The notes under the pieces: generated by a model
The model's database searches: none
The model's input: the letters and a program-made list of their open reading frames with translations, nothing else
What the model was told of the DNA's origin: nothing
Shown here: positions 4,810 through 9,751 of the stretch, in pieces
How the letters are laid out: each line of letters begins with the position of its first letter
Numbering within the stretch: the first letter of the stretch is position 1
Translations under genes and position numbers: made by a program
IMG/VR virus record: IMGVR_UViG_2718217897_000009
Coordinates: 1 to 18,768 of that record
Length of the DNA stretch: 18,768 nt
From: a virus
Taxonomy: Duplodnaviria; Heunggongvirae; Uroviricota; Caudoviricetes
Reading direction: 5' to 3' (one strand)

Positions 4810-5652
4810 TCATGATGAAATTGCCGAAGTTTTTTTATCGTGCTGAAGTACCGCAAATGCCATTAAAACCTCAAGAGAATAGCGACGATAATACTTAACA
4901 AAACCATAATAAAATACTCGGGATGCAGCAATACAAAACAAGAGAAGAAAACAAAAAGGTAACAGCCTGATATTTATATCTATTAAAAAGGATAGAAGGA
5001 ACAGGAACATAAGCAACCAGACTGAAGCGAGAAAAACAAATGTAATGTTTCTACAAAAACCATACAAAGCAACATAGTTTTGCATTTTCACCTGATGATT
5101 TTTAGAATGTTCATACACATAATGATAAGCAAGGCGAAAAAGATCGCCCCTCAAGCCCTTACGTCGATATAGCGTAGATACAGAAAAAACATTTATATAA
5201 CCATCTCGTATTTGCGGCCAAAAGACTTTAATAAGTATAGAATGCAGTGTGGTTTTATGATGTTCTGCTTTATCAAAAGCTGATACAGGAAGTAAAAAAA
5301 CTCCACGGATAAAATTAACTATACTGAACTTAGTATTATGTCGTTTTATTTTCAGGGAGCTTCTTTTAGAAAACAGATAAATTGAAGGATACCCAAGTTT
5401 ACTGTTCATATATTTTTCAATTAAACAGGATGATAGAATAGATATGAAGTGACCTGAAATATATGATAGAACGATTAATACCACATATATAAATACAGTT
5501 ATTATTTCTTTATATTTCAGGATATGGTTAAGAATACCTTCTATATAAACAGGGTTAATTTCAATAGAAAACAAAAAAAGGATAAACAGGAATAACCCAC
5601 CTGGAATTAGATAGCCCAAAAAGTCATAAAATGAAAACGGATTCTGTGTCAC
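4810..5652 (-). CDS. Hypothetical multi-pass membrane protein (280 aa, GTG start), low-GC cargo
   Basis: Long ORF in a markedly AT-rich segment; hydrophobic stretches at about residues 13-30, 50-75, 205-230 and 238-256; no recognised catalytic motif. Confidence 0.6.
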   Translation of the reverse strand: MTQNPFSFYDFLGYLIPGGLFLFILFLFSIEINPVYIEGILNHILKYKEIITVFIYVVLIVLSYISGHFISILSSCLIEKYMNSKLGYPSIYLFSKRSSLKIKRHNTKFSIVNFIRGVFLLPVSAFDKAEHHKTTLHSILIKVFWPQIRDGYINVFSVSTLYRRKGLRGDLFRLAYHYVYEHSKNHQVKMQNYVALYGFCRNITFVFLASVWLLMFLFLLSFLIDINIRLLPFCFLLLFCIAASRVFYYGFVKYYRRYSLEVLMAFAVLQHDKKTSAISS

Positions 5653-5691
5653 ACTTCCCCCTGTGTTACTTGTAAATTAAAGGGTAAAACA

Positions 5692-6189
5692 TTATTTGTT
5701 TTTCCGTAAAGGATTAGCTTTCCATCTTCTTACTAACCATTCGAATTCTTGATATGTAGTATCCGAATTAATGCTTTCTCTGATTGCTTTAATTAATGGC
5801 TCGGCAATATCATATGTCTCTACAACTGTTGTGTAAGATGTTCTTTTTATCATTTTTTCATCATAAATACCTTCACGAATACTTACAGCAACTCGCTCGT
5901 AAAAATTTAAAATATATTGAAATTTTCGACGCTCGGCCATTTCTTCATCTGTTATTGTGCAACCATCACAAGGAAAAACATAAGAACGAAATGATTTGCC
6001 TGAACGATGCACTTGTTTCAGGGTATGCAATGACTCTATATATTGCATATCTTGCCGACTCTCAAAAAGAAAGTTGGCCGTTTGAGTTTTTTTTGCGGTA
6101 CGCACATTGTAGATAATGGTTCCAATGGCAACCAAAACGCCAAGCAGAACAATAGCATTGCTGATGATTTGTAGTGTTATTGGGTTCAT
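5692..6189 (-). CDS. Hypothetical protein with a single N-terminal TM helix (165 aa), low-GC cargo
   Basis: ORF with hydrophobic N-terminus (IISNAIVLLGVLVAIGTIIY) followed by a charged soluble domain; same strand as and 39 bp upstream of the 280-aa gene. Confidence 0.6.
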   Translation of the reverse strand: MNPITLQIISNAIVLLGVLVAIGTIIYNVRTAKKTQTANFLFESRQDMQYIESLHTLKQVHRSGKSFRSYVFPCDGCTITDEEMAERRKFQYILNFYERVAVSIREGIYDEKMIKRTSYTTVVETYDIAEPLIKAIRESINSDTTYQEFEWLVRRWKANPLRKNK

Positions 6190-6214
6190 CCTATTTCATC
6201 CATAAAAAAGGCGG

Positions 6215-6225
6215 GGAGCAAATCC
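6215..6225. repeat. IS186 target-site duplication, left copy (GGAGCAAATCC)
   Basis: Identical 11-bp sequence directly flanks both ends of the element. Confidence 0.75.
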
Positions 6226-7564
6226 CATAAGCGCTAACTTAAGGGTTGAACCATCTGAAGAATGCGACGCCTCGGTGCCTCGTTAAGACGATGCCTCGCG
6301 TTCTTCAATTGCGTTTTGTAGGCTGTCAGGGATACTGTCCCACGAATGGCCACCTGTAAGCTCCAGATGACCATTTTTGTTATTCTCCACAACGAGTTAG
6401 TTCTTCTTTTCGGATCCGGCACTTCTGGGGGGGAAATCCAGCGATGGCTGGATTATGTCGTCAATTAAAAATGCGGCGAGTAGATTAGCAAATATCCACG
6501 CTTTCGCGAGTTCAGGTTCCTTTGCACGCAAAGCATCCAGGTGCAGCAAACTTTTGAGCCGCTTAAAAGCCAGTTCAATTTGCCATCGCAGACGGTAACA
6601 ATCAGCCACTTGCTCTGCTGAATATTCATCTTCCGGTAATGATGTTAGCAATAGCACATGGCCCGCTGCTTCCAGCGTTTCCGCCTGAACTACTCGTCCT
6701 TTTCGACGATTCTCGCTGAGCAGTCGGGTTTTACTGATTAATGCTTTTTCGGGAGGAAGTGATACGGCAATGAGACGTGCCGGAAAGGGAGCTCCGGCTT
6801 TTTTATTACCTGAATTGCCTATCATTACAGTGGTTTCACCGTTCTTACCGCAATCCAGCCCGCGCAGAAAACCCATCATGTCAAAGCGCATTCCTTCTGC
6901 AGTTAACCAGCGCAATCCTCGCCAGTGAACCCGGACGATATAATCAGCTTCTCCAAAAGCAAGTGAGCGGATACATTCGGGACGCGAACCGAATCCCCGG
7001 TCAGCAATGCGTATCTCGTCTGCCGTTTGCGCAAATCGGTCCAGCCGTTCAGCGTCTCTGCTGTCGGTTAGCTCAAAATCAGTGAACTGACAGGTATGAG
7101 GATCATATCCCATATGTAGTCGCCATTCAGCGCTGCCGCCCCCGGGCGCACTGATTGCTGTTCCATCGACAAGACGCAATCTCTTTCCGCTTGTACAACC
7201 CGTAACTGCGGCGCGTACAGCAAGTGTTTGTGCGGCAAGTATGCCAAACCAGTCGGCGGCATTCCGCAGCCGCTTCAGGAGAGCCACGTCAGATAATGTT
7301 GCAACGTCATGGAGCTGAGCCCATGCAGTGACTTCACGTAATGACATCCCCCCGGGGCCGTAAGCCAGCCCCAGACGTAGCAGAGTTGCAGCATCACGAA
7401 TTTCGCGGCGGCGGGTTAGAGCCCCGGCATTACGTGCCGAAGTATCCAGTTCTTCGGGCTTACCAATATGGGCCAGAATTGCTGACCAGTTATCGTGAGA
7501 GTAATTCATCGGCACGTTAAATCATATCAGGCGTAATACCACAACCCTTAAGTTAGCGCTTATG
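6226..7564 (-). mobile_element. IS186 (IS4 family), 1339 bp, perfect 23-bp terminal inverted repeats CATAAGCGCTAACTTAAGGGTTG
   Basis: Terminal inverted repeats at 6226-6248 and 7542-7564 read directly; the internal ORF matches the IS186 transposase; flanked by an 11-bp direct repeat. Confidence 0.9.
6397..7509 (-). CDS. IS186 transposase (DDE, IS4 family), 370 aa
   Basis: Translation MNYSHDNWSAILAHIGKPEELDTSARNAGALTRRREIRDAATLLRLGLAYGPGG... matches IS186 transposase over its full length as I remember it; the ORF track starts two codons earlier (MPMNY). Confidence 0.9.
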   Translation of the reverse strand: MNYSHDNWSAILAHIGKPEELDTSARNAGALTRRREIRDAATLLRLGLAYGPGGMSLREVTAWAQLHDVATLSDVALLKRLRNAADWFGILAAQTLAVRAAVTGCTSGKRLRLVDGTAISAPGGGSAEWRLHMGYDPHTCQFTDFELTDSRDAERLDRFAQTADEIRIADRGFGSRPECIRSLAFGEADYIVRVHWRGLRWLTAEGMRFDMMGFLRGLDCGKNGETTVMIGNSGNKKAGAPFPARLIAVSLPPEKALISKTRLLSENRRKGRVVQAETLEAAGHVLLLTSLPEDEYSAEQVADCYRLRWQIELAFKRLKSLLHLDALRAKEPELAKAWIFANLLAAFLIDDIIQPSLDFPPRSAGSEKKN

Positions 7565-7575
7565 GGAGCAAATCC
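7565..7575. repeat. IS186 target-site duplication, right copy (GGAGCAAATCC)
   Basis: Identical to 6215-6225. Confidence 0.75.
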
Positions 7576-7736
7576 CCGCCTCATTAGAGGTCAACGTAGC
7601 TTAGAAACCATCAAATTCATCATGCATTTTTTTCATATCAACCCCCTCATAGAAATCATAACCACGTTTTGTGGTTTTTGTGATGCATAAACTACATCAA
7701 AGGCAAGCTACGGTCAAATATATGGGCATGCTTACC

Positions 7737-7766
7737 TGCACAAAAGTGCACAAATTTGCACAATTT
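7737..7766. repeat. Three direct repeats of TGCACAA phased exactly 10 bp apart
   Basis: TGCACAA at 7737-7743, 7747-7753 and 7757-7763, followed by a T7 run; helical-turn phasing suggests a protein-binding array. Confidence 0.5.
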
Positions 7767-8075
7767 TTTTGAACGACTTTTTACCCTTCCGGCCCGCGTG
7801 GCAGCTGGATCCGTCAGGGATCCGTGCATGCACAAAAAAACGCGTTTTTGTTGCGCGCAGGTGCCGGGGGAACAGCCCGCAATTTGGGGTCTGAAAGCAT
7901 CCTCAGAAATCGCCAGAAATGCTGCTGATTGTGCCCCTGACGCGATGTTTTATTGGTTGTGTGGTGAAGTATGGGCTGATGCATCACATGCCTGTGATGC
8001 ACTTTGATGCGACGTGTGCTGACAGGTTATTCAACCTGGTAGATCCCTGAGATGCCTGGTGCGTGACACACCGGA

Positions 8076-8099
8076 GCTGGTGAGTCGGGGCATAAATTT
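8076..8099. other. Near-perfect palindrome CGGGGCATAAA-TT-TTTATGCCCCG about 37 bp downstream of the portal stop
   Basis: Read directly; 11-bp arms; no adjacent T-tract on the minus strand. Confidence 0.4.
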
Positions 8100-8135
8100 T
8101 TATGCCCCGGAGAAGCAGCAGACAAGCGGAGCGCG

Positions 8136-9185
8136 TCAGGATATGGGCGGGGTATCCAGCAGTGCGTAAGGGTTAAAACGGATCACCTCTTCGCCCAGCC
8201 AGTCATTAACGTGCTTCATCGCCTCCATCACCGGCATCAGTTCGTTGATCGCAAACACTCTGGCCGCCTTCTCCACATCACCAAAAGAACCCTGCCCGCT
8301 GGGCATTGCGCCCATCAGTTGTGGTGGTACACGGTGAGCGGCCAGCACATCATCACGGGAGGCCGCCTTGACGTTCATGAACTCATCCCGGGCGGTGATC
8401 TGCTGGAATGGCAGGATTTGCACACCGTCCTTCCCGCCGTTCGGTGCCTGGAGTAGCAGGTTCTTGAATGCCCCACCGCCTCTTGCGCCCTGCAACGCTC
8501 TTTCGAGAGCCTGCATACTTTCGCGATCAACCTGTGCTGCCCCCACGTAAATGATGCAGCCTGCATGTGAACCGTTGTCATAGTAGAGTTTGCGGAAGCG
8601 ATCTGCCGAGTGCGACAGACTGGCAGACAACAGGCCACCGAGATATTCCGGCATTCCGTACATCTCCTGGTTGATGTCGGGGTTCAGCACATGGCAGACG
8701 CGCCCCTGACGGAACTCGTGGTCCTGCTCCCCCGTCTGCACAAACCAGTACACATCCGGCTCAACACCACGACGGACGTATTTTGCCAGCGCGTGCCGTA
8801 GTTCCAGTTTTCCGCCCAGCCTGTTGGTGCGCAGTTCAAGAAACGCATTCCCGAAGACAAACCAGTCCAGCGCAAAGGCGGAGAACGCCTGCCGGGAGAG
8901 CAGCCGGTGCGGAATGAAGCAGCCCAGTATGGCATTCCGCTTGAAGTACAGCGCCGACTGGTGCCACGAGGTCTGCCGGGATGCCCGCGCCAGTCCGTAC
9001 CAGTCAACGGGCGTTTCGTAGTATCTGCCGTTACTCAGGCAGTATGCGTTATCCAGCAGGTCGAGTGCGTGCGCATCGTAAGGGCCGTCGAACGAGAAGG
9101 CGCTTAACGACGGCTGGCGGCGCAGTGCCTCTGCCAGCGCCACGCCGTCATCGCGGCGCGAATATTTTCGTTTTTGTTTTTTCAT
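8136..9185 (-). CDS. Phage portal protein (P2 gpQ-like), 349 aa
   Basis: Size and position match P2 Q (344 aa); start ATG overlaps the stop of the upstream terminase ORF (ATGA), as expected for the P-Q arrangement. The family assignment is a recollection-level call. Confidence 0.7.
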   Translation of the reverse strand: MKKQKRKYSRRDDGVALAEALRRQPSLSAFSFDGPYDAHALDLLDNAYCLSNGRYYETPVDWYGLARASRQTSWHQSALYFKRNAILGCFIPHRLLSRQAFSAFALDWFVFGNAFLELRTNRLGGKLELRHALAKYVRRGVEPDVYWFVQTGEQDHEFRQGRVCHVLNPDINQEMYGMPEYLGGLLSASLSHSADRFRKLYYDNGSHAGCIIYVGAAQVDRESMQALERALQGARGGGAFKNLLLQAPNGGKDGVQILPFQQITARDEFMNVKAASRDDVLAAHRVPPQLMGAMPSGQGSFGDVEKAARVFAINELMPVMEAMKHVNDWLGEEVIRFNPYALLDTPPIS

Positions 9186-9751
9186 CAGAACTCAATCACC
9201 CGCATTCCTGTTGCACCGTCCTCATCGCCCAGCGGCTCGTTAATGACGGCAAGCATGGTTGCCCACGCGAGGTCGCCGTGGTTTACGCCGCGTGTGCGGT
9301 CTGTTTCATACGTTATTGCCCCGCCCGCCGTTTTTGCCTTGCGCACAGCGTTGAATGCCCTGACCAGCTCACGTTCGCCCCGGTCATACTCCCAGCGCCC
9401 CGCACGAATAATCTGCAGCATCTTCAGCACAAGCGCGCGTTTGGATGCCAGCGTGAACGTGTACGGCACGGCGGCAGGCCAGAACCGCCGCACTATCTGG
9501 TACACTGCCTCACCGTTACCGCCGGTCACGTCGATACCAATGTGCTGGACGTTGTATTTGTGCGTGAACTGCTCAATCACACGGGCCTGCTCTTCAAATT
9601 CCAGCCCCTGCACCTGCAACGTCTCCACCGTGCGGAATTTGCCGCCCCTGACGGCAGGCGGTACAACAACAGACAGCGCCCCGCTGACGTAGCAGGAAAC
9701 AGGGGGATTTGCCCCTGTTTTTTTGTTCAGAATGCAGCCTTCACCATTCAT
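9185..9751 (-). pseudogene. 5'-truncated terminase large subunit (C-terminal nuclease domain only; ATPase domain missing)
   Basis: 188-aa ORF with terminase-nuclease-like features (IGIDVTGG ... VNHGDLAWATMLAV near the C-terminus) but no ATPase domain. P2 gpP is about 590 aa. The first ~18 codons overlap a hairpin/T-run and a tail-gene remnant, so the annotated start is probably spurious. Confidence 0.55.
9696..9723 (+). terminator. Rho-independent terminator-like hairpin (AAACAGGGG/CCCCTGTTT stem, T7 run)
   Basis: Inverted repeat followed by TTTTTTT on the plus strand. Confidence 0.45.

What the first reader, a model, noticed from the sequence alone, without database searches (positions are those of the whole stretch)
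7737..7766. Helically phased triple TGCACAA repeat in the region between IS186 and the portal gene
Three exact heptamers at 10-bp intervals followed by a T-run lie in the non-coding region where P2-like phages carry cos and terminase-recognition sequences. Phased repeats of this kind are typical binding arrays for a DNA-binding protein.
Basis: seen in the sequence. Interest (0 to 1): 0.4.

Follow-up and report, generated by a model that had tools for sequence, protein, structure and literature searches.

The report
Repeat array of a prophage cos site
The three phased TGCACAA repeats are real and form the conserved outer edge of the DNA-packaging (cos) site of a decayed P2-like (P88-type) prophage. 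They are most likely docking sites for the phage's packaging enzyme: an expected kind of element, but one whose fixed layout across the whole P2 family I did not find described.

Summary
TGCACAA occurs at 7737, 7747 and 7757, followed by a T7 run, and a fourth copy sits at 7829. The window holds a defective P88-like (Peduoviridae) prophage of E. coli.

By homology, the 19-nt cohesive-end sequence is 7860-7878, which puts the repeats at -123, -113, -103 and -31 from it. Among 64 relatives with unrelated left flanks, conservation jumps from random to 80-100% exactly at -123. The GCACAA cores are 97-100% conserved, while the 3-bp spacers vary.

P2, 186, satellite P4 and P4-like satellites carry TGCAT at -124/-123, -111, -101 and -29. 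Ralstonia RSA1, Stenotrophomonas Smp131 and, more loosely, Pseudomonas phiCTX have the same layout. The known 55-bp P2/P4 cos core begins at the proximal copy, so the distal triplet lies outside it.

Two different repeat units occur in phages of the same host, and satellites share their helpers' unit. Together these point to a helper-encoded reader, most likely terminase and probably its small subunit. Binding is inferred, not shown.

A ParR centromere, chance and a known RNA were tested and rejected. A promoter or terminator role does not explain the family-wide conservation.

The element here is a relic, because the prophage lacks terminase and capsid genes. Novelty: new member of a known kind. 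Interest is moderate.

The parts
7737..7743 (+). Distal repeat 1 (TGCACAA), at -123 from the start of the cohesive-end 19-mer. It is the first conserved base of the cos block.
   Evidence: The conservation profile jumps from 0.3-0.5 to 0.8 or more exactly here in 64 loci with distinct left flanks. The unit is 87-100% conserved per column.
7747..7753 (+). Distal repeat 2 (TGCACAA), at -113.
   Evidence: Columns are 95-100% conserved in 92 distinct cos-anchored relatives, against 80-89% for the flanking spacer.
7757..7763 (+). Distal repeat 3 (TGCACAA), at -103.
   Evidence: Columns are 99-100% conserved.
7764..7772 (+). T7 run plus GA, conserved with the array in P88-type cos sites.
   Evidence: Columns are 96-100% conserved. 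Together with the weak GTGCA/TGCAC stem it is scored as terminator-like, but the fold is not better than shuffles.
7783..7826 (+). G+C-rich middle segment containing the dyad GGATCCgtcagGGATCC (7807-7823). Its sequence is lineage-specific, but its length is held constant.
   Evidence: One search shows a gapless alignment anchored at cos. The distance from the first repeat to cos is 123 bp in 100 of 107 P88-type loci and 121 bp in 5 of 5 G3 loci, although the sequences between differ.
7829..7840 (+). Proximal repeat 4 (TGCACAA at -31) plus an A-run. It is the counterpart of TGCATTAAAA, which opens the known 55-bp P2/P4 cos core.
   Evidence: It is 96-100% conserved. P2, 186, P4 and the P4-likes have TGCAT at -29, as do 102 of 105 P2-type phage loci and 15 of 15 satellite loci.
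7841..7859 (+). Short dyad CGCG...CGCG and GCAG immediately before the nick region. It corresponds to CCGCCCCG..CGGGCGG in P2.
7860..7878 (+). Inferred 19-nt cohesive-end sequence (cosN), GGTGCCGGGGGAACAGCCC. Relatives have GGTGACGGGGGAACAGCCC.
   Evidence: It matches the P2 sequence GGCGAGGCGGGGAAAGCAC at 13 of 19 positions, read directly from the sequence. The Klebsiella-type lineage has GGCGAGGCGGGGGAGCAAG at the same offset behind the same GCGCGCAG. The phiRSA1 cohesive end begins GGTGAGGCGGGG (PMC5694545). The window's A5C variant is seen in 2 of 107 relatives. Cleavage itself has not been demonstrated.

Best explanation
The three TGCACAA units form the distal half of a two-part recognition element in the cos (DNA-packaging) site of a P88-type, P2-like prophage. 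The proximal half is the fourth TGCACAA at -31, directly beside the 19-nt sequence that terminase nicks (7860-7878). The three distal units sit 10 bp apart, on one face of the helix. A fixed 72 bp separates the last distal unit from the proximal one. The most likely mechanism is that several DNA-binding domains of an oligomeric phage terminase, probably the small subunit (a PF05944, gpM-type protein), each read one unit. This would bend or wrap the roughly 90 bp between the sites and place the large subunit's nuclease on the 19-mer. Three things are shown: the sequence anatomy, its conservation, and the fact that the same architecture with a different unit recurs across the P2 family and its P4-like satellites. 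Three things are inferred: protein binding, the identity of the protein, and the wrapping geometry. In this window the element is a relic. The prophage has lost the small terminase subunit, most of the large subunit and its capsid genes, so the site could act only if a P88-type helper phage supplied terminase.
For: (1) The repeats are real and non-random.
(2) Position: they lie between the cargo hotspot and the portal gene, where P2-like phages carry cos (PMC9122126).
(3) cos homology: the 19-mer homologue is 123 bp downstream in 100 of 107 P88-type loci and 121 bp in 5 of 5 G3 loci.
(4) Boundary: in 64 loci with unrelated left flanks, column conservation is 0.3-0.5 up to -124 and at least 0.8 from -123 onward.
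(5) Cores versus spacers: GCACAA cores are 97-100% conserved, 3-bp spacers 80-93%.
(6) Same architecture in classical phages: P2, 186, P4 and five P4-like satellites from other genera carry TGCAT at -124/-123, -111, -101 and -29. This holds although P2's intervening sequence is unalignable with the others.
(7) Distant relatives: RSA1 has the units at -129, -110, -100 and -29; Smp131 at -129, -112, -102 and -29; phiCTX has GCAG units at -109, -99, -83, -37 and -28. The phiCTX record annotates 'R4, R5, R6 repeats' across cos.
(8) Satellites: all 15 P4-like loci in IMG/VR keep TGCAT at -111, -101 and -29. P4 shares only the cos region with P2 (PMC9122126).
(10) Small-subunit clades: the GCACAA lineages share a small-subunit clade at 52-58% identity, against 33-34% to P2 and 186.
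(11) Unique site: the motif forms no other cluster in the complete P88 genome, where 9 copies are found against 9.7 expected and 4 of them lie at cos.
Against: There is no binding or packaging experiment for these repeats in any P2-like phage in the literature I could read. The primary paper (Ziermann and Calendar 1990) is not held. Later papers cite only a 55-bp core as conserved and required, and that core excludes the distal triplet. The match between repeat unit and small-subunit clade is confounded by phylogeny, because the large subunit and portal diverge in parallel. In P4-like satellites the first two TGCAT copies also form the hairpin after psu. In P2 they overlap the old/tin promoter region. 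Some conservation could therefore serve transcription. No solved structure exists for PF05944, so a DNA-reading domain is assumed rather than seen. In P2-type phages the outermost copy is less conserved, found in 50 of 105 loci.
Confidence: 0.68

Rival explanations
1. Transcription signal. The array plus T-run acts as a weak intrinsic terminator or insulator that stops transcripts from the cargo hotspot from running across cos. On the other strand it could act as a promoter or operator for cargo genes.
For: The scanner scores a terminator-like GTGCA/TGCAC 5-bp stem followed by T7. In P4-like satellites the first two TGCAT copies form the GCCATGCA..TGCATGGC hairpin followed by T's right after psu. 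In P2 the old/tin transcript starts lie about 150 bp from cos, so that promoter overlaps the TGCAT copies.
Against: The fold is no better than shuffles, with z-scores of -0.44 and -0.54. P88 and many relatives have a separate strong terminator just upstream of the array. No sigma-70-like site overlaps the array. Cargo genes abut the array in either orientation across 64 different flanks. A terminator would conserve a stem, not three direct units at fixed distances from the nick site, nor a fourth copy at -31.
Confidence: 0.1
2. Architectural or host-factor element. The phased A/T tracts (CAAAAG, CAAATTTG, CAATTTTTTTG) give an intrinsic bend or bind a host bending protein such as IHF. Either would help terminase act at cos without sequence-specific reading of the heptamers.
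For: A-tracts recur every 10 bp and a conserved T7 run follows. The lambda cos site uses an IHF-induced bend (general knowledge). The phiCTX record annotates an IHF site near cos.
Against: P2, 186, P4 and RSA1 keep the same positions with TGCAT units and no phased A-tracts. The G/C-containing GCAC part of each unit is 97-100% conserved while the A/T-rich spacers vary. Two different units coexist in phages of the same host, which argues against a host reader. The phiCTX IHF site lies about 300 bp from cos, not at the repeats.
Confidence: 0.1
3. Recombination boundary. The array is the crossover point or signal at which cargo cassettes of the cos-proximal defence hotspot are exchanged, and it is conserved for that reason rather than for packaging.
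For: Homology between relatives with different cargo begins exactly at the first repeat. Rousset et al. note that the hotspots abut cos and speculate that cos ends promote exchange (PMC9122126).
Against: In P4-like satellites the hotspot lies on the other side of cos, yet the TGCAT triplet is still kept between psu and cos at the same offsets. A sharp boundary is also what purifying selection on an essential site next to free-to-vary DNA would produce.
Confidence: 0.07
4. Centromere (parC-like) array for the ParM/ParR partition genes carried by P88-type phages.
For: P88 and the window encode ParM and a partition protein 1-3 kb to the left. Centromeres of ParMR systems are phased direct repeats (general knowledge).
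Against: Of loci with at least 4.5 kb of upstream sequence, 0 of 15 Novemvirus-type, 14 of 52 P88-type and 0 of 69 P2-type loci... more precisely, ParM is present in 0 of 15, 38 of 52 and 0 of 69, so many lack it, yet all keep the repeat architecture. The array is fixed to cos, not to parM.
Confidence: 0.02
5. Chance low-complexity repeat with no function.
For: The heptamer count in the whole window is not above expectation.
Against: Only 1 of 300 shuffles gives any such phased triple. The array is conserved in more than 100 distinct relatives with cores more conserved than spacers.
Confidence: 0.01

Closest known systems
cos site of P2, 186 and P4 (the 55-bp core of Ziermann and Calendar 1990, as cited in PMC5694545, PMC3931495 and PMC9122126)
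   Same: The location between the cargo hotspot and the portal gene is the same. Both have a G+C-rich 19-mer (13 of 19 identical to P2), a short dyad before it, and a proximal TGCA unit plus A-run at about -30 that opens the core. Both have three distal units at about -123, -112 and -102.
   Different: The unit is (T/C)GCACAA instead of TGCAT in all four copies. Spacing is 10/10 bp instead of 12-13/10 bp. The 19-mer differs at 6 positions, and a conserved T7 run follows the array. The distal triplet is not part of the described 55-bp core. I could not read the 1990 paper to see whether it was noted there.
Lambda cosB (the R1-R3 binding sites for the small subunit gpNu1, plus IHF site I1)
   Same: Both have several short repeated recognition sites beside the nick site that position terminase. 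A unique array in the genome and a bend or wrap between sites and nick are the proposed logic for both (general knowledge).
   Different: There is no sequence or protein homology (PF05944 versus gpNu1). The lambda sites are not all in direct 10-bp phase. Here almost all conserved sequence lies on the side that becomes the right end of the virion DNA, and no IHF site was identified.
phiCTX cos-flanking repeats ('region3; containing R4, R5, R6 repeats' in NC_003278)
   Same: These are repeated GCAG units at -109, -99, -83, -37 and -28 from cos in a P2-like phage, annotated by the depositors as repeats spanning cos.
   Different: The unit differs (GCAGRRA) and the positions are partly shifted. 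I could not read any functional statement about them.

Membership tests
P2-family (Peduoviridae) cos site | Lies between the replication/cargo side and the portal gene (gpQ homologue) of a P2-like genome | tested here: met
   The portal gene is 8136-9185(-), with a remnant of the terminase large subunit next to it and ParM and cargo genes on the other side. P88 and P2 have the same order.
P2-family (Peduoviridae) cos site | G+C-rich 19-nt cohesive-end sequence related to GGCGAGGCGGGGAAAGCAC | tested here: met
   7860-7878 is GGTGCCGGGGGAACAGCCC, 13 of 19 identical to P2. A bridging lineage has GGCGAGGCGGGGGAGCAAG at the same offset. phiRSA1 starts GGTGAGGCGGGG.
P2-family (Peduoviridae) cos site | Core-like flank: a TGCA unit plus A-run and a short dyad immediately upstream of the 19-mer (left part of the 55-bp core) | tested here: met
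   TGCACAAAAAAACGCG..CGCGCAG at 7829-7859 corresponds to TGCATTAAAACCGCCCCG..GCGGGCG in P2 and P4.
P2-family (Peduoviridae) cos site | Staggered cleavage by terminase giving 19-nt 5' cohesive ends, and ability to direct packaging | not testable with these tools
   No physical-end data exist for P88-type phages in the records seen. The only linear record that starts nearby (P88_4B11) starts at -77, probably arbitrarily.
Terminase small-subunit binding array (lambda cosB-like) | Multiple repeated sites next to the nick site, unique in the genome | tested here: met
   There are four copies within 100 bp of each other and no other cluster in the 35.8-kb P88 genome or in the window.
Terminase small-subunit binding array (lambda cosB-like) | Sites are bound by the small terminase subunit | not testable with these tools
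   Only indirect support is available. Satellites share their helper's unit, the unit differs between phages of one host, and the small-subunit clade follows the unit. No PF05944 structure exists.
ParMR centromere (parC) | Repeat array co-occurs with, and lies next to, parM/parR | tested here: not met
   ParM is present in 0 of 15 Novemvirus-type and 0 of 69 P2-type loci that have at least 4.5 kb of upstream sequence and still carry the array.
Rho-independent terminator | Stable G+C-rich stem-loop followed by a T-run | tested here: inconclusive
   A 5-bp stem with 3 G-C pairs plus T7 passes the simple scan. However, the minimum free energy of -8.4 kcal/mol is no better than shuffles, z = -0.44.
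Known structured RNA (Rfam) | Match to a covariance model | tested here: not met
   No match at E <= 1 in 7500-8200 on either strand.

The most novel reading that the evidence does not exclude
All Peduoviridae and their P4-like satellites may share a two-part packaging signal that is larger than the textbook 55-bp cos core. It would consist of a phased distal triplet at about -123, -112 and -102, plus a proximal copy at about -30 from the nick. The unit would be a lineage-specific 'code': TGCAT in P2/186/P4/RSA1, GCACAA in P88/Novemvirus/Reginaelenavirus, and GCAGRR in phiCTX/Smp131. That code would be read by the gpM-type small terminase subunit and would set which helper can package which satellite or cosmid. 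P88-type phages would then form a separate packaging-specificity group. No P4-like satellite with their code was found among 128 IMG/VR loci.
Probability: 0.45. Interest if true: 0.6.

Novelty: new member of a known kind. Interest (0 to 1): 0.4.

Why it matters
DNA recognition by P2-type terminase is poorly defined. There is no structure for the small subunit family, and only a 55-bp conserved core is cited. The repeats provide explicit candidate contact sites, a fixed spacing to test, and a natural specificity swap (TGCAT versus GCACAA) between phages that infect the same host.

- It would explain why the cargo/defence hotspot of P2-like phages stops exactly at -123.
- It would predict which helpers can mobilise which P4-like satellites.
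- It would tell engineers of P2/P4 cosmid particles how much flanking DNA a cos cassette needs.

For this particular window the result is ordinary. The site is an intact-looking but orphaned packaging signal in a prophage that can no longer package itself.

Tried and rejected
- **ParR centromere.** Rejected, because many loci with the array lack ParM.
- **Known RNA.** No Rfam match. Single-strand folds of the array and neighbouring segments are no better than shuffles.
- **Promoter.** No sigma-70-like site overlaps the array.
- **Repressor or operator array.** No second cluster of the motif exists in the window or in the complete P88 genome.
- **Alternative cos location at about 7785-7803.** I first considered CCCTTCCGGCCCGCGTGGC, which resembles the reverse complement of the P2 cos and sits where the P88_4B11 linear record starts. 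I dropped it after the Klebsiella-type lineage showed a near-P2 19-mer at the 7860 position.
- **Satellites with the GCACAA unit.** A search for P4-like satellites carrying this unit found none. That was 0 of 128 IMG/VR loci and 6 psu-anchored loci from GTDB genomes, all of TGCAT type. The sampling is small, so this is absence of evidence only.
- **Using the Klebsiella-type lineage to tell the two terminase subunits apart.** This failed, because both subunits follow the repeat unit.
- **Literature.** Ziermann and Calendar 1990 and the Christie and Calendar review are not held. Searches for the TGCAT repeats at cos returned nothing.
- **Structure prediction of the small subunit.** Not attempted. 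The window encodes none, and a model would not link the protein to the repeats.

Full report
**Observation.** The sequence at 7737-7770 reads TGCACAAaagTGCACAAattTGCACAAttttttt. It holds three exact heptamers starting at 7737, 7747 and 7757, followed by seven T. A fourth exact copy, followed by an A-run, lies at 7829-7835. Tandem Repeats Finder reports a 10-bp array at 7737-7763. The heptamer is not enriched in the window overall, with 7 copies against 5.07 expected. The arrangement is nonetheless non-random: only 1 of 300 dinucleotide-preserving shuffles contains any exact 7-mer three times at a constant 8-12 bp period.

**Context.** The window is 100% identical to an E. coli chromosome region between glsA/ybaT and copA. 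That region holds a defective P88-like prophage of the Peduoviridae (P2-like), close to the genus Xuanwuvirus.
- The replication endonuclease is truncated.
- The terminase large subunit is reduced to its C-terminal nuclease domain at 9185-9751.
- Scaffold, capsid, small terminase, lysis and baseplate genes are missing.
- An IS186/IS421 copy at about 6226-7564, with a 12-13 bp target duplication, sits 171 bp to the left of the array.
- The portal gene is 8136-9185 on the minus strand.
- An intact relative with the same cargo genes and no IS exists in an O157:H7 genome.

**Where cos is.** Phage hits (P88, 520873, 500465-2, Chuche and Enterobacter phage phiT5282H) begin to align with the window exactly at 7737. 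The repeat pattern is present in at least 120 IMG/VR contigs. These fall into three P2-like lineages:
- P88-type.
- Novemvirus-type.
- A Klebsiella (Reginaelenavirus)-type. At the homologous position, behind the same GCGCGCAG, its 19-mer is GGCGAGGCGGGGGAGCAAG. That is almost the experimentally known P2 cohesive end, GGCGAGGCGGGGAAAGCAC.

This fixes the cos 19-mer of the window at 7860-7878, GGTGCCGGGGGAACAGCCC. Relatives have GGTGAC, and the window's variant occurs in 2 of 107 relatives. The repeats are therefore at -123, -113, -103 and -31 from the start of the 19-mer.

**Conservation.** The distance from the first repeat to the 19-mer is 123 bp in 100 of 107 P88- and Novemvirus-type loci, and 121 bp in 5 of 5 Klebsiella-type loci. 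This holds although the sequence in between differs between lineages.

Anchoring on the 19-mer rather than on the repeats, I kept 64 loci whose left flanks are unrelated to each other. In these, column conservation is at background (0.3-0.5) up to -124 and at least 0.8 from -123 onward. In a MAFFT alignment of 92 distinct cos-anchored sequences, the GCACAA cores are 97-100% conserved, the first base 89-99%, and the 3-bp spacers 80-93%. On the other side, homology with prophages that have a different cos-to-portal spacer ends about 2 bp after the 19-mer (query 5-321).

The conserved block is therefore about -123 to +21, bounded by variable DNA on both sides, and the first TGCACAA is its first base.

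**The same architecture elsewhere.** I aligned P2, 186, P4 and P4-like satellites without gaps on the start of their known or inferred cohesive ends. The satellites come from Enterobacter, Tatumella, Citrobacter, Kluyvera and Photorhabdus, with psu only 60-65% identical. All carry TGCAT at -124/-123, -111, -101 and -29. P2 keeps these positions although its intervening sequence is unalignable with 186 and P4.

Among IMG/VR loci anchored on a P2/186-type 19-mer:

| Loci | TGCAT near -29 | near -111 | near -101 | near -124 |
|---|---|---|---|---|
| Phage (105) | 102 | 82 | 79 | 50 |
| P4-like satellite (15) | 15 | 15 | 15 | 14 |

More distant relatives show the same plan:
- Ralstonia phiRSA1 has TGCAT at -129, -110, -100 and -29.
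- Stenotrophomonas Smp131 has CGCAG at -129, -112 and -102, and TGCAG at -29.
- Pseudomonas phiCTX has GCAG units at -109, -99, -83, -37 and -28. Its GenBank record annotates 'R4, R5, R6 repeats' spanning cos.

The 55-bp core that later papers cite from Ziermann and Calendar 1990 corresponds, by my count on the P2 and P4 sequences, to -29..+26. It therefore begins with the proximal TGCAT, and the distal triplet lies outside it.

**Inference on mechanism.** Four observations point to a phage-encoded, sequence-specific reader that belongs to the packaging machinery.
1. The array is fixed to the nick site, not to any gene.
2. It is unique in the genome. The full P88 genome has 9 copies against 9.7 expected, 4 of them at cos and no other cluster.
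3. Two different units, TGCAT and GCACAA, occur in phages of the same host, E. coli. This argues against a host protein.
4. P4-like satellites share only the cos region with their helpers (PMC9122126) and depend on helper terminase, yet they keep their helpers' unit at the same offsets.

The 10-bp phasing puts the distal units on one helical face. The invariant 72 bp between the third distal and the proximal unit is close to seven helical turns.

I therefore propose that an oligomeric terminase contacts the four units, bends or wraps the intervening DNA, and positions the nuclease on the 19-mer. The most likely reader is the gpM-type small subunit (PF05944). Small subunits of the GCACAA lineages form a clade at 52-58% identity to P88, against 33-34% for P2 and 186. 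The large subunit and portal diverge in parallel, so this does not single out the small subunit. No structure of this family exists. Binding, the identity of the protein and the geometry are all inferences.

**Rivals.**
- **ParR centromere.** Excluded. ParM is absent from 0... that is, present in 0 of 15 Novemvirus-type and 0 of 69 P2-type loci that have enough upstream sequence and still carry the array.
- **Terminator.** This is weakly suggested by a 5-bp stem plus T7. In P4 the first two units do form the hairpin after psu. However, the fold is not better than shuffles, P88 has its own terminator just upstream, and a terminator does not explain fixed offsets or the copy at -31.
- **Promoter or operator.** No promoter-like site overlaps the array. 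The old/tin promoter overlap in P2 is specific to that lineage.
- **Intrinsic curvature or a host bending protein.** This cannot be the conserved property. TGCAT-type sites lack phased A-tracts, and the G/C part of the unit is the best conserved.
- **Recombination boundary.** This is compatible with the sharp edge at -123. It does not explain why satellites, whose hotspot is on the other side of cos, keep the array.
- **Known RNA.** No Rfam family matches.

**Verdict.** The element is the distal repeat array of a P88-type cos site, orphaned in a defective prophage.

As a kind of thing it is known: a cos site with phased recognition repeats. What I did not find described in the literature available to me is twofold:
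- The distal triplet sits at fixed offsets across the whole P2 family and its satellites.
- The unit differs between lineages.

The key 1990 paper could not be read, so prior description cannot be excluded. Interest is moderate, because the element gives concrete, testable sites for a poorly characterised terminase and a possible basis for helper-satellite packaging specificity.

Noticed in passing
window 6214-7576: An IS186/IS421 copy (about 6226-7564; transposase ORF 6397-7515 on the minus strand) is flanked by a 12-13 bp direct duplication, GGGAGCAAATCC(C). It inserted into a G+C-rich hairpin, AGGCGGGGAGCAAATCCCCGCCT, between the cargo genes and cos. The cos block itself is untouched.
   Followed up: partly
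window 4810-6189 (minus strand): Two cargo genes sit in the P2-type hotspot next to cos. One is a 280-aa protein with only a weak PADLOC hit to Csx27 (E = 1e-5), and the other is a DUF4760 protein. The same pair occurs without the IS in an intact P88-like prophage of E. coli O157:H7 PV15-279 (L294). They may be an uncharacterised defence cassette.
   Followed up: partly
window 9185-9751 and beyond: The prophage is heavily decayed. The terminase large subunit is reduced to its C-terminal nuclease domain. Scaffold, capsid, small terminase, lysis and baseplate genes are deleted. The replication endonuclease is truncated, and RefSeq marks the tail sheath and a methyltransferase as pseudogenes.
   Followed up: partly
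window 7864: The inferred cohesive-end 19-mer carries C where nearly all relatives have A (GGTGCC versus GGTGAC; 2 of 107 repeat-anchored relatives share the C). This could be decay in a defective prophage or a rare natural variant.
   Followed up: partly
window 7977-8010 (also 7680-7688): A second, weaker 10-bp array lies on the portal side of cos, with TGATGCA motifs at 7977, 7993 and 8003 and one more at 7680. It is absent from P88 but present in some E. coli prophages that share this spacer. It is unexplained.
   Followed up: no
window 7807-7823; L002, L013, L011, L017 at equivalent offsets: Most lineages have a G+C-rich dyad between the distal and proximal repeats, and its sequence differs by lineage: GGATCCgtcagGGATCC here, CGCCAGAGCTGGCG in 186, CGCGCCattcccGGCGCG in P4, and GCGCCAGAACTGGCGC in the Klebsiella type. 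P2 has none. It could be a further recognition or structural element.
   Followed up: no
L136 5157-5900 and L289 5898-6647 (P2 gpM, 186 R): The small terminase subunits of P2 and 186 end in a basic KRGRPKK/KRGRPPK tail that resembles an AT-hook. P88-type proteins have a different basic tail. No solved structure exists for this family (PF05944).
   Followed up: no
L004 position 1 and L007 end (NC_049391, P88_4B11): This linear GenBank record starts 77 bp upstream of the inferred cohesive end, inside the cos block. The start is probably arbitrary rather than a physical end, but no end-mapping data were available to check.
   Followed up: no
IMG/VR loci L014-L286: P4-like satellites make up 15 of 120 loci with a P2/186-type cos but 0 of 128 loci with a P88-type cos. 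P88-type phages may have no P4-like satellites, or their satellites may be missed by this sampling.
   Followed up: partly
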